Positions 26,325 through 30,710 of a stretch of 64,000 nt of DNA are shown here, piece after piece. Each line of letters opens with the position of its first letter. Position 1 is the first letter of the stretch. The translations under genes were made by a program, and so were the position numbers. The notes under the pieces were generated by a model. The model did not search any database. It saw only the letters and a list, made by a program, of their open reading frames with translations, and was not told where the DNA came from. The stretch is from Octopus vulgaris (Eukaryota). The stretch is from contig OX597815.1 in the NCBI GenBank assembly GCA_951406725.2, forward strand, positions 79,856,001-79,920,000, given 5' to 3'.

Positions 26325-26667
26325 CACTTAAAATGGTCGTACTGCATTACTACTTGATATTCCGTTGCTTATTTTGATTATACATACATATATATAAATA
26401 CACACGCACACACGCACATACACACACACGCACATACACACACACGCACATACACACACACGCACATATATATATATATATATATAATCAAAATAAGCAA
26501 CAGGATATCAAGTAGTAATACCGTACGATCGTTTCAAGTGGAACTATATTTTTGAGTAATGCAGATATCCTAGAAACAGCTGTAAGACTTTGATTTTTTT
26601 CCAATAATAATAATGTATAAGACTTGAGATGTTTGCCTTGTCTTAACGTTTGTTGTCCTCTTAAATA

Positions 26668-26714
<47 letters not shown>

Positions 26715-26860
26715 TAAACAGGACGGCAAACATTAAAGCAAGGCAAACATCTCAAGTCATATACAATATTATTATTAGAAGGAATTCCTATGATAATAAT
26801 ATTGTATACGACTTGAGATCATTGCCTTGCCTTAATGTGTGCTGTCCTGTTTAGCAATTA
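26325..26860. repeat. Cluster of nested inverted repeats around microsatellites
   Basis: 26325-26380 is inverted at 26486-26542; a ~70-bp unit occurs at ~26605 (+), ~26708 (-) and ~26793 (+). Confidence 0.75.
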
Positions 26861-26999
26861 TATATCCGCTGCATCGGAAATCTGCAATAACTCTATAACT
26901 ACCGTCTTGGCTATAACCTTGGAGCGCTAGGAATCACTTACAGCACCTACCTAGCGTACTTAATCGTTTCGATCACCTGTGAACTAAACCCCCTTAATT

Positions 27000-27248: not shown

Positions 27249-27480
27249 GGCGGCGAGCTGGCAGAAACGTTGGCACGCCGGGCGAAATGCATAGCCGTAT
27301 TTCGTCTGCCGTTACGTTCTGAGTTCAAATTCCGCCGAGGTCGACTTTGCCTTTCATCCTTTCGGGGTCGATAAATTAAGTACCAGTTACACACTGGGGT
27401 CGATATAATCGACTTAATCCGTTTGTCTGTCCTTGTTTGTCCTCTCTGTGTTTAGCCCCTTGTGGGTAGTAAAGAAATAG
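27249..27480 (+). mobile_element. Young family B SINE with 16-bp TSD
   Basis: GTATTCGATTGCTATG at 27231 and 27481. Confidence 0.9.
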
Positions 27481-28214
27481 GTATTCGATTGCTATGTGAT
27501 GGATAGCTAGTTCCTCGTTGGTGGATACTCGTCCAGTAGAGATACCAGTAGTTCACTCCAGCACGCAATACATAGAAATGAAGTAACACACAGTCACTGA
27601 ACTTGCAACAAGCAATGTATAGTAAAGTAAGTGACAACCAGTCACTGATCTGACAAGAGATGAAAGCAGTAACTATACTGAGAAGTAATGTTTACTGTCA
27701 CTTAAACATGGTTGTTCCGTAGGAATCGACGTTACTGCTATTTTTAACCGAACGTGATTTTTACTTATTTCAAAAAATATTTTATTTTACAAGAAATTCC
27801 TTTCTCTAAATGCATATTCACGATATTCTTTCATCATCATTAAATTAATTTCCATATAACTTACCTATAAAATTTCATGTCGTTGCTAATGTATGTATAA
27901 TTGTGCACGAAACCATTACTCTACACCAGCTTTTGGTTCATTCACAAGTTCCATTAAATTCTCAAAATTTCCAATTTGAATATATTTTCATATAAATGTT
28001 GCTAATATGTTCATTTTAAAAACTTTTTGCTAGAAGTCTCACCCATTCTCTACAACTGTCTTTTACTGTAATTACCACCTGTCCTACATCTTGTAGACAT
28101 CTTTCTACCTAAATACATCCCTTTGTCTGTTCCGGCCACCAATGAGCGTTGATTAGCTTACATTTTGCAATCTTACAACTTTCAAAGACTTTCAGAATGA
28201 TTACCACTCCAAAC

Positions 28215-28382
28215 AAAATGCTTAACAGCATTTCTTTCGTTTCTTTACGCTTTGAATCAAAATTTCACCGTGGTCGACTTTGTTTTTCAACCTTTCGTGA
28301 TCGATAAAATAAGTACCAGTTGAGCCCTGATATAATCGATTTACCCCTCACCTGAAAATTACTAGTTTTGTTCCAAAATTAA
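28215..28382 (+). mobile_element. Degenerate family B SINE
   Basis: GGTCGACTTTG...TCGATAAAATAAGTACCAGTTGAG core. Confidence 0.7.
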
Positions 28383-28649
28383 AAAGAAGTATTTTTAAAT
28401 AATTTTCCGATGTTTCAAAGTTATTTCAATTTTTTTTTTTGCTTTAGTTTGTTTCCTTTCATGAAGTCATTTCGCTATTTAAACTTTGTTTTTGTTATAA
28501 ATGTTTAAAAGTTACGGAGATGTACTTGCATAGCGAGTGACTTGATCTGAGATCGTGCGCTGGAACGAAAACAATTGCAGCGTGGAAGGTGTTTGTAAGC
28601 CATTTAAGAAACACAAAACCGTTAGATTCACTTCAACATTTAAATTTAA

Positions 28650-28700
28650 TTTGTCAAAATATTTTCGTCGCTTTGAGACCGCGACCTGTTCACTGACAAA
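28650..28700 (-). ncRNA. Hammerhead ribozyme candidate with G3:C8 core
   Basis: TTTGTCA-GTGAACA-G-GTCGC(ggtctcaaa)GCGAC-GAAA-ATAT-TT-TGACAAA; 7-bp stem I, 5-bp stem II, palindromic stem III. Confidence 0.7.
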
Positions 28701-28748
28701 ACTTCGTGCTGCATCTGAGCAGCATGGAATTTTGATGCGTCACGGAAT

Positions 28749-28799
28749 TTTGTTAGTGAACAGGTCGCGGTCTCAAAGCGACGAAAATATTTTGACAAA
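28749..28799 (+). ncRNA. Hammerhead ribozyme candidate with G3:C8 core (second arm)
   Basis: Same motif; a C-to-T change in stem I leaves a U-G pair. Confidence 0.7.
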
Positions 28800-29306
28800 T
28801 TAAATTTAAATGTTGAAGTGAATCTAACGGTTTTGCGTGTTTCTTAAATGGCTTATAAACACCTTCCACGCTGCAATTGTTTAAAAGTTATAATTTCATT
28901 AAAAAGTTCATTTACTTTTAGTCGAAACAAATTTAGAGGTGGGGAAAGGGGTTAAACGAATTAGTGCTCAGATTATACCCAACCGTCTTAAATTAGAAAG
29001 TACACATTAGACAATGTAGCTGTATAGAAAAAATAATTATATCAGCCAAAGATCATTACTTTCAGAGATCGAATACCCAAGGGGTTAACTTTGCCTTTCA
29101 TCCTTCCAGTTTCAGAAAAATGAGTTACTAGTGAAGTACGGTGATGAATTTGTGATCTCGCAAAACATCTTAAATGTGAATAGATATATACTATAACAAG
29201 ATATGATGTGTATCACCTAACACATTCTATCTCGTCTTGGGATGTGAAAGAAGTATGAAAGAATCTATTAGTCGAACGTACAAAAGCATACCTTCCTCTC
29301 TCTTTC

Positions 29307-29350
<44 letters not shown>

Positions 29351-30710
29351 GTGGGTAACCTTATTTTTGTGTTTAAATGCTAAAATGTATTGTAAGAGGA
29401 AATGTTTATGTCTGTTTATAAAGTTATCTGATTTTAACCCAATATGTCGGACGTAGTTGAATTATTTAAGATGGCTCTATAAGAATGCAGGTGATAGAGA
29501 TTAAAACAAATCTAATGCCATCTAAAATATAAATTTAATATTTATTGCTTATGGATCCTTGAGCATGTACGGGTAACGAGGCACACTGCTTCTGCTGCCC
29601 GCGTCACTATCGTTGTGTATGCGCATACTATGCTGTCTATGTCAAAAGTCTATGTGGGAAAAAAAGGCACAATATATCGATATAAAGAGGATGCATATAT
29701 GGTACTATGCTGTACTTTTTACTCGGTTTCGACACATCAATGTCTGAAGAATGAGGCAGAATCAGGCAACAGTTTCGTATGTGTGTGTGTGTGTGAAAGA
29801 GAGAGTATATGTACACACATCTGCATATAAGTGCACATGAATGTAAATACACACACTTATAAACATATATATACACACACGTGTGTGTGAGTGTGTATGT
29901 TTGTGTATGTTTGTGTATGTGTGTGTGAGTGCGCGCGCGCGTCTCTATGATACGTTCTGTCCACGAGGGATCGTTTTAAAGCGTAGGGAAAGAATTATGG
30001 GCACCGAATAAATGCTTGTAAATATAAAACAAAAATTTTCTCTCTCGGTGCCGGTTTGTATCCCGTCTACTTTGCCTGCCTGCTTACCTGCCTACCTACC
30101 AACCTATCTCTCTCTCGCTCTCTTTCTTTCTTTCGTTCTTTCTTTCTTTCTCACTCCCTCTATTTTCTTTTTAGTTCTTTAATTAGTTTTAGCTAATACA
30201 GCTAATGCCATAGCAGTGCACTGCCTTTACATTTGAACATTAATTGCCTTCTGTGTCATATTTGCGTATGTCCAATGGTTCAACATGTTTGTTTGGTTTC
30301 TCATTAAGATAACTTTAGCTGATGGATCAACGACTAGGTGGAATCTGCTCAACTCTGGCCGTAGCCTTATCGATTCTACTATTGAAAGATTGAAGAACAC
30401 TACACAAATCACACAAACAATTCTGTGGTAGCACTCCTTTCTCTTACATTAGCCATTTCTTTTAAAGAATGATGTTCTTCTTTCCTTGTAAATAGGTATC
30501 AGAAGCGATTAGTCAGAAATTCCGTTTCGAAGATATTTTAGGAACATTTTTGTAAGAATTTCTTTTTATTCTTTACATTTTTATTTAACTTACATTTGTA
30601 AAAACATACATCAAACTAAAAATGCTGCCACAAACTCTCAGACCTTCTGTGAAATATTTCCTTTGAAAGTCGTGCTCGAAAACGAGCAACACACACACAC
30701 ACACACACAG

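What the first reader, a model, noticed from the sequence alone, without database searches (positions are those of the whole stretch)
28515..28890. Head-to-head hammerheads with a swapped G3:C8 catalytic pair
Seen: both arms of a TSD-flanked foldback read stem I-GUGAACA-G-stem II-GAAA-AUAU-UU-stem I. Against CUGANGA, exactly positions 3 and 8 are exchanged. Known: C3-G8 is a tertiary Watson-Crick pair and the G3:C8 double change partly rescues cleavage; natural cases are uncommon. A precise compensatory swap with all three stems intact argues against decay. The UUU cleavage triplet is also unusual. The spacer holds a short re-primed duplicate (CA(T/C)GGAATTTTG), suggesting template switching.
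Basis: partly seen in the sequence, partly recalled or inferred. Interest (0 to 1): 0.85.

Follow-up and report, generated by a model that had tools for sequence, protein, structure and literature searches.

The report
Swapped-core hammerhead in octopus retrotransposon
Thousands of copies of a Penelope-type jumping gene in a likely octopus genome carry a hammerhead RNA motif whose two paired core letters are swapped (G-C instead of C-G), probably a slow but working natural variant of the self-cutting RNA, while the mirror-image layout at this spot is a common by-product of how these elements insert.

Summary
Observation confirmed. Both arms of a foldback with a 13-bp target duplication carry a minimal type I hammerhead motif with G3 and C8. 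It is the leader (pLTR) of a Penelope-like retrotransposon with RT, a CxxxCxxC linker and GIY-YIG (1025-codon open frame). 7,192 genomic matches exist; 94 of the first 100 are G3:C8 and the exact C3:G8 version has 0 matches. The sister family in the same genome (55% protein identity) has C3:G8 in register, and other relatives have C3:G8 or U3:A8, so the swap is a derived, pair-preserving change. Two subfamilies differ at 0 of 42 structured and 10 of 72 unstructured positions. Not special: the head-to-head layout (31 foldbacks seen, 30 with the tail on one arm only) and U17 (24 of 56 published examples). Copies do not start at the cut site (2 of 100) but about 60 nt upstream (45 of 100), so uncleaved RNA is likely what gets copied. 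Cleavage is untested. My searches found no natural G3:C8 in print, but the key 2017 survey was unreadable. This scan noted G3-C8 before in protist Penelope-like elements and phages.

The parts
28502..28514 (.). Left copy of the 13-bp target-site duplication
   Evidence: (D13)
28512..28718 (-). Left arm: leader of the PLE from about 60 nt upstream of the predicted cut to the distal reverse-transcription start (with tail)
   Evidence: ends -61 and +146
28512..28568 (-). About 55-nt PLE tail, present on this arm only; it encodes part of the ORF's first codons
28601..28603 (-). ATG of the PLE ORF (MAYKHLPR...) in the left arm
28650..28701 (-). Hammerhead motif 1, minimal type I, G3 at 28693 and C8 at 28688, predicted cut between 28657 and 28656
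28719..28733 (+). 15-nt sense duplicate of the leader start at the inversion junction (likely re-priming or template switch)
   Evidence: mechanism inferred
28734..28882 (+). Right arm: leader from about 59 nt upstream of the predicted cut to the proximal reverse-transcription start (no tail)
   Evidence: ends -60 and +91
28748..28799 (+). Hammerhead motif 2, G3 at 28756 and C8 at 28761, extra G 28763, palindromic loop 3, predicted cut after U17 at 28792
28848..28850 (+). ATG of the PLE ORF, about 56 nt after the predicted cut, so the hammerhead lies in the non-coding leader
28878..28890 (.). Right copy of the 13-bp target-site duplication

Best explanation
This is a foldback insertion of two short copies of the leader of a Penelope-like retrotransposon, each carrying a minimal type I hammerhead with a family-wide G3:C8 swap of the core pair, which likely leaves a slow self-cleaving ribozyme that would need dimerisation or the element's protein. 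SHOWN: the motif sits about 1 kb after the GIY-YIG stop and 56 nt before the ATG in tandem copies; G3:C8 is fixed; relatives carry C3:G8 or U3:A8. INFERRED: the swap arose on this family's branch and was kept because the 3:8 tertiary pair is under selection; U17 may have eased it by avoiding a G3-C17 mispair. INFERRED for the insertion: the element's protein nicks both DNA strands, primes at two internal sites (+91 and +146), copies uncleaved RNA back to its 5' end about 60 nt upstream of the cut site, and the two cDNAs join head to head. Rare cleavage would remove the 5' end of the mRNA or trim tandem read-through transcripts.
For: Fixation: 7,192 matches with positions 3, 7 and 8 free, 94 of the first 100 listed G3:C8; 65 of 72 in a sample picked by a 3' anchor; 0 matches for C3..G8 in this family's context; no variant of 4% or more listed at either position in 4 of 4 runs with four organism labels. 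Parent: 28 of 30 top EN loci carry the motif downstream in a regex scan (L099-L128; L115 counted, L105 has no arm in range); open frames of 1025, 839 and 755 codons; Pfam GIY-YIG E 2e-5. Covariation: sister family C3:G8 in register, grouped with this family at SH-aLRT 97 in a quick tree; metagenome relatives L179 C3:G8, L180 and L184 U3:A8 (scan) and L185, L186 C3:G8 (by eye); with 3 and 8 left free, all 7 other hammerhead families found in 945 kb had Watson-Crick 3:8 pairs, reversed control 0. Subfamilies A and B: 0 of 42 structured against 10 of 72 unstructured columns differ, Fisher p 0.013. Engineered C3G/G8C partly restores cleavage of a PLE hammerhead, which needs the PLE protein (PMC11167929). 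Foldbacks: 30 of 31 have the tail on exactly one arm.
Against: No cleavage data. Only 2 of 100 copies begin within 2 nt of the predicted cut, both explainable by a deletion or an inversion junction. The C3:G8 sister family is no different (1 of 30), so this test does not discriminate. Five of the ten A/B differences lie in loop II and may be one or two events, which would weaken the p value. Stem III is one A-U pair and the dimer helix would be A-U only; cofolding did not give the catalytic dimer. The young sister subfamily carries A9C, so core decay can spread in active families here. One G3:C8 lineage is one event. The tree is the quick one, midpoint-rooted, with few relatives whose hammerhead is known; 6 of 11 metagenome loci showed no readable hammerhead.
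Confidence: 0.6

Rival explanations
1. The motif keeps the hammerhead fold, with the 3:8 pair, as a structural element of the leader (protein-binding site, translation or promoter element) but cleavage is negligible in vivo.
For: The copied RNA is uncleaved. In the anole PLE, hammerhead mutants do not affect insertion in vitro and no RNA-seq reads ended at the cut site (PMC11167929). Minimal PLE hammerheads cleave poorly in vitro (PMC4209133). A role of the fold in translation initiation is discussed for viral leaders (PMC13725137 passages).
Against: G12, G5, A6, A9, A13, A14 and H17 all stay canonical, which a purely structural role need not demand. In the viral case a catalytic G mutation abolished the translation effect.
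Confidence: 0.27
2. The hammerhead is a dead relic: two substitutions that happen to be complementary were fixed in the master copy and hitch-hiked with a successful element.
For: Copy-level fixation only reflects the master sequence. PLE clades without canonical hammerheads amplify well (PMC8557442 passages). A9C spread in the sister family.
Against: Both changes are transversions that restore exactly the one tertiary pair, with all other core letters intact. Loop II changed in length and sequence between subfamilies while stems and core did not. No family-level 3:8 mismatch was seen among 7 other families.
Confidence: 0.12
3. The foldback is a MITE-like DNA element or the two hammerheads act together as a head-to-head unit.
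For: Long inverted arms and a target duplication.
Against: The arms are of unequal, variable length, most copies are not symmetrical, the same sequence ends RT/GIY-YIG elements, and the two motifs lie on opposite strands, where a read-through RNA is predicted to pair them away.
Confidence: 0.01

Closest known systems
Minimal type I hammerheads (min-HHR) of metazoan Penelope-like elements (Cervera and de la Pena 2014, PMC4209133)
   Same: Type I, in the pLTR, extra nucleotide between 9 and 10.1, G10.1-C11.1, palindromic loop 3, U-rich flank, many short copies, opposite-strand pairs 100-700 bp apart, U17 frequent.
   Different: Core pair G3:C8. The paper reports C3-G8 and a U3-A8 variant; none of the 56 rows of Fig. 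S3 begins its core with G.
Natural U3-A8 hammerheads (Perreault et al. 2011, PMC3088659; Schistosoma PLEs in PMC4209133)
   Same: Natural compensatory change at the 3:8 pair.
   Different: U3-A8 needs two transitions and keeps the pyrimidine-purine order; G3:C8 needs two transversions and inverts it.
Engineered C3G/G8C double mutant of the Anolis Poseidon PLE hammerhead (Frangieh et al. 2024, PMC11167929)
   Same: Same core pair; hammerhead at the pLTR-ORF junction; tail from two internal RT starts; uncleaved RNA as template.
   Different: Engineered there, natural and family-wide here. Here the ATG lies 56 nt after the cut site rather than inside stem II, and the protein has a Zn-finger-like linker.
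Neptune/Nematis-type EN+ PLEs (described in PMC8557442)
   Same: RT, then CxxxCxxC linker, then C-terminal GIY-YIG; (TA)n targets; partial tandems; inverted 5'-truncated copy; tail at one end.
   Different: No reference Neptune or Nematis protein was placed in my tree, so the clade is not fixed. The tail is about 55 nt against the 30-40 nt described.

Membership tests
PLE minimal type I hammerhead | Core CUGANGA...GAAA with a Watson-Crick 3:8 pair | tested here: met
   The pair is kept as G3:C8; the literal C3 and G8 letters are not
PLE minimal type I hammerhead | Extra nucleotide between 9 and 10.1, G10.1-C11.1, stem II of 4 bp or more | tested here: met
   G at 28763; 5-bp stem II; features from PMC4209133
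PLE minimal type I hammerhead | Minimal stem III with palindromic loop, NUH cleavage site, stem I | tested here: met
   A15.1 to U16.1 reads AAUAUU; U17; 7-8 bp stem I
PLE minimal type I hammerhead | Located in the pLTR of a PLE | tested here: met
PLE minimal type I hammerhead | Self-cleavage after H17 (as dimer or protein-assisted) | not testable with these tools
   Only contigs were available; copy ends do not cluster at the cut site
Rfam hammerhead families | Match to a covariance model | tested here: not met
   No hammerhead family at E<=5 in 27500-30000
EN+ Penelope-like element | Single ORF with RT and C-terminal GIY-YIG | tested here: met
   1025-codon frame with YVDD motif and GIY-YIG; Pfam PF01541 E 2e-5, RVT_1 weak at E 0.05
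EN+ Penelope-like element | pLTR-ORF tandem junction, inverted 5'-truncated copy, tail at one end | tested here: met
   L272 and L275 junctions; L094, L129 inversions; tail on one arm in 30 of 31 foldbacks
Neptune/Nematis PLE clades | Zn-finger-like CX2-5CxxC linker between RT and EN | tested here: met
   CQSNCAVC in P0001; feature from PMC8557442
Neptune/Nematis PLE clades | Phylogenetic placement with reference members | not tested
   No named reference PLE proteins were at hand for the tree
Non-LTR retrozyme | Head-to-tail tandem repeats each with a hammerhead | tested here: not met
   Copies are dispersed, solo or head-to-head; definition from bioRxiv 10.64898/2026.07.22.740005

The most novel reading that the evidence does not exclude
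A recently mobile animal retrotransposon has fixed, under selection for catalysis, an inverted G3:C8 core pair so far known to me only from engineered mutants, giving a tuned-down hammerhead in its mRNA leader. With C3:G8 and U3:A8 relatives it forms a natural series showing that the 3:8 pair, not its letters, is conserved, and implies a class of ribozymes that CUGANGA descriptors and Rfam miss.
Probability: 0.4. Interest if true: 0.68.

Novelty: new variant of a known kind. Interest (0 to 1): 0.52.

Why it matters
Hammerhead searches assume C3 and G8 (sometimes U3 and A8). A G3:C8 core in over 7,000 copies of a young element, with a C3:G8 sister family in the same genome, is a ready-made pair for asking what hammerheads do in Penelope-like elements and how a two-transversion swap is crossed. 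The family also gives genomic support for the in vitro PLE model: two internal RT starts used once each per foldback (30 of 31) and copying of uncleaved RNA.

Tried and rejected
Rfam scan: no hammerhead hit. Cleavage-site pile-up of 5' ends: absent here (2 of 100) and in the sister family (1 of 30), so uninformative about G3:C8. Coding constraint as the cause of G3:C8: rejected, as the ATG lies 56 nt downstream and subfamilies differ by 1-nt indels in the motif region. Spliced (intron-less) junction at the upstream AG: 0 of 26 copies matched upstream element sequence ending at a GT, so start site versus splice acceptor stays open. Arms from different subfamilies as a rule: only 1 of 26 comparable foldbacks, although the window's two arms carry different recurrent variants. 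Cofold of two motifs did not give the catalytic dimer. Sequencing runs: no RNA holder listed and only contigs, which cannot show ends. Related loci in prokaryote genomes and viral contigs: none. The careful tree did not finish; the quick tree was used. Literature: searches for G3C8 (0 papers), C3G+G8C (2), C3-G8+covariation+natural (1), G3-C8 (1), G3/C8 spellings or G8C (9 listed) and octopus+Penelope+hammerhead showed only engineered G3:C8. Lunse et al. 2017 and Przybilski and Hammann 2007 are not held and were not read; figures were not visible.

Full report
What is there. The window lies at G000:C2:79856001-79920000 in a 2.8-Gb genome. The host is likely an octopus: the closest named protein is labelled Octopus vulgaris and its contig length equals that of C18; this is inference. 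At 28512-28882 two arms face away from each other, flanked by a 13-bp direct repeat. Each reads stem I, GTGAACA, G, 5-bp stem II, GAAA, ATAT, TT, stem I. Against CUGANGA only positions 3 and 8 differ. Rfam does not see it. The other features match the hallmarks listed for PLE minimal hammerheads in PMC4209133 (parts 1-2 of 4 of the text read).

The family. A 15-mer over the core has 6,710 exact matches (control 1). With 3, 7 and 8 free there are 7,192 matches; 94 of the first 100 listed are G3:C8 and the other 6 are scattered changes, none C3:G8. The canonical version in this context has 0 matches. In the loci chosen by a 3' anchor, 65 of 72 whole motifs are G3:C8. Contigs of four runs with four organism labels list no variant at 4% or more at either position.

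The parent. Longer copies extend 5' through a branch-point/acceptor-like stretch (526 exact matches) and about 1 kb of microsatellite-rich DNA into a GIY-YIG domain. Of the 30 best EN loci, 28 or more show the motif downstream (L105 has no arm within range). Open frames reach 1025 codons with RT, a CxxxCxxC linker and GIY-YIG, and many EN copies score identically, which suggests recent activity. At tandem junctions the ORF starts at an ATG 56 nt after the predicted cut and the tail is the start of the ORF. Many insertions end in (TA)n. This fits a Neptune/Nematis-type PLE as described in PMC8557442 (passages; supplement searched); the clade was not placed by a tree.

Is the swap compensatory? 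The nearest family in the same genome (55% identity over 512 residues) has a hammerhead in the same place and register with C3:G8; older copies read CTGATGA and the young ones carry A9C. In a quick tree the two families group at SH-aLRT 97. Of 11 metagenome relatives, 3 gave a hammerhead by scan (one C3:G8, two U3:A8; that scan required a 3:8 pair), 2 by eye (C3:G8, one with U4G), and 6 none readable. With 3 and 8 free, 945 kb of this genome's loci gave 7 other families, 4 C:G and 3 U:A, none mismatched, and 0 hits on reversed DNA. G3:C8 is therefore most simply a derived, pair-preserving change. Within the family, subfamilies A (25 copies) and B (52 copies; 15 of 92 leaders unclassified) differ at 0 of 42 stem and core columns and 10 of 72 other columns (p 0.013); five of the ten lie in loop II and may not be independent.

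What is ordinary. U17 occurs in 24 of the 56 representatives of Fig. S3 of PMC4209133 (counted by eye; supplement parts 1-2 of 3). Inverted 5' copies are standard for PLEs. I found 31 short foldbacks (30 on C1 plus the window); 30 have the tail on exactly one arm, matching the two internal RT starts and two-strand nicking shown for the anole PLE (PMC11167929, parts 1-2 of 4). A transcript through the foldback is predicted to be one long hairpin (-245 kcal/mol), so the two motifs cannot partner each other in cis. The window's arms carry different recurrent variants (12 against 6 copies at one site, 19 against 185 at another), which suggests two source RNAs; arms of different subfamilies are otherwise rare (1 of 26).

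Does it cut? Unknown. Among the first 100 anchor matches on C1, 45 copies begin 52-61 nt upstream of the cut, 13 further up, and 2 within 2 nt of it. One copy that runs on into the ORF also starts there (L285). So the copied RNA is likely uncleaved and likely begins at about -60. An initiator-like start is favoured over a splice acceptor because 0 of 26 copies showed an upstream exon, but Drosophila Penelope has an intron in this position (PMC2377424 passages), so this is open. The C3:G8 sister shows no pile-up at its cut either (1 of 30). Engineered G3:C8 is partly active (PMC11167929; PMC8495972 passage). PMC3884650 (passages) notes that G3-C8 does better with G17 than with C17, which suggests by inference that U17 is a tolerant background. 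Against catalysis: a one-pair stem III, poor in vitro rates of such motifs, and A9C spreading in the sister family.

Novelty. Natural U3-A8 is published (PMC3088659 passages; PMC4209133). Six searches showed G3:C8 only as an engineered change. Lunse et al. 2017, the largest survey of PLE hammerheads, could not be read, and figures were not visible, so prior report is not excluded. Also seen: PMC6765202, PMC13725137, PMC2920678 and PMC10085705 (passages), PMC11300833 (term search, no hits), bioRxiv 10.64898/2026.07.22.740005 (part 1 of 5). This scan holds seven unchecked notes of G3-C8 cores in protist PLEs and phages, none in this genome or on this sequence; I did not test them.

Verdict. A real, family-wide, probably selected G3:C8 variant of the known PLE hammerhead, in an ordinary PLE foldback. 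New variant of a known kind; interest 0.52.

Noticed in passing
L149-L178, L239-L270 (G000, e.g. C19:14370500-14380400): The sister PLE family (5,248 matches of a 25-mer; 1310-codon frames; 4.6-kb tandems) has a young subfamily with A9C in its hammerhead core, while older copies keep A9; both C17 and U17 forms occur.
   Followed up: partly
L129:7608-7687 (run X10): One run guessed to be RNA shows A>G changes at 13 places against 2-3 in the other three runs, as A-to-I editing of element RNA would give; there is no matched DNA, so alleles are not excluded.
   Followed up: no
G000 copies, e.g. L194, L207, L217, L218, L285: 5' ends pile up at the AG or G just before the leader's first ATG-like triplet (45 of 100), inside a branch-point/acceptor-like stretch kept in both subfamilies; start site or splice acceptor is unresolved.
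   Followed up: partly
L064, L083, L091, L114, L142, L221, L251, L276: Other dispersed hammerhead families in this genome, with C3:G8 or U3:A8 cores; their parent elements were not traced.
   Followed up: no
window 26592-26865: A second foldback with a third partial copy, in (TA)n-rich DNA (I2, I3, D7); possibly another PLE-type insertion; the hammerhead descriptor gave no hit there.
   Followed up: no
window 27312-27388, 28245-28321, 29056-29132: Three copies of a 77-nt dispersed repeat (D6), probably an abundant SINE-like element.
   Followed up: no
L092:1373-2608: A mariner/Tc1-like transposase sequence inserted in the 3' untranslated part of a PLE copy (label from the translation, recalled, not searched).
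   Followed up: no
L086: A foldback whose two arms carry different loop II types (9-nt and 8-nt), pointing to two RNA templates in one insertion.
   Followed up: partly
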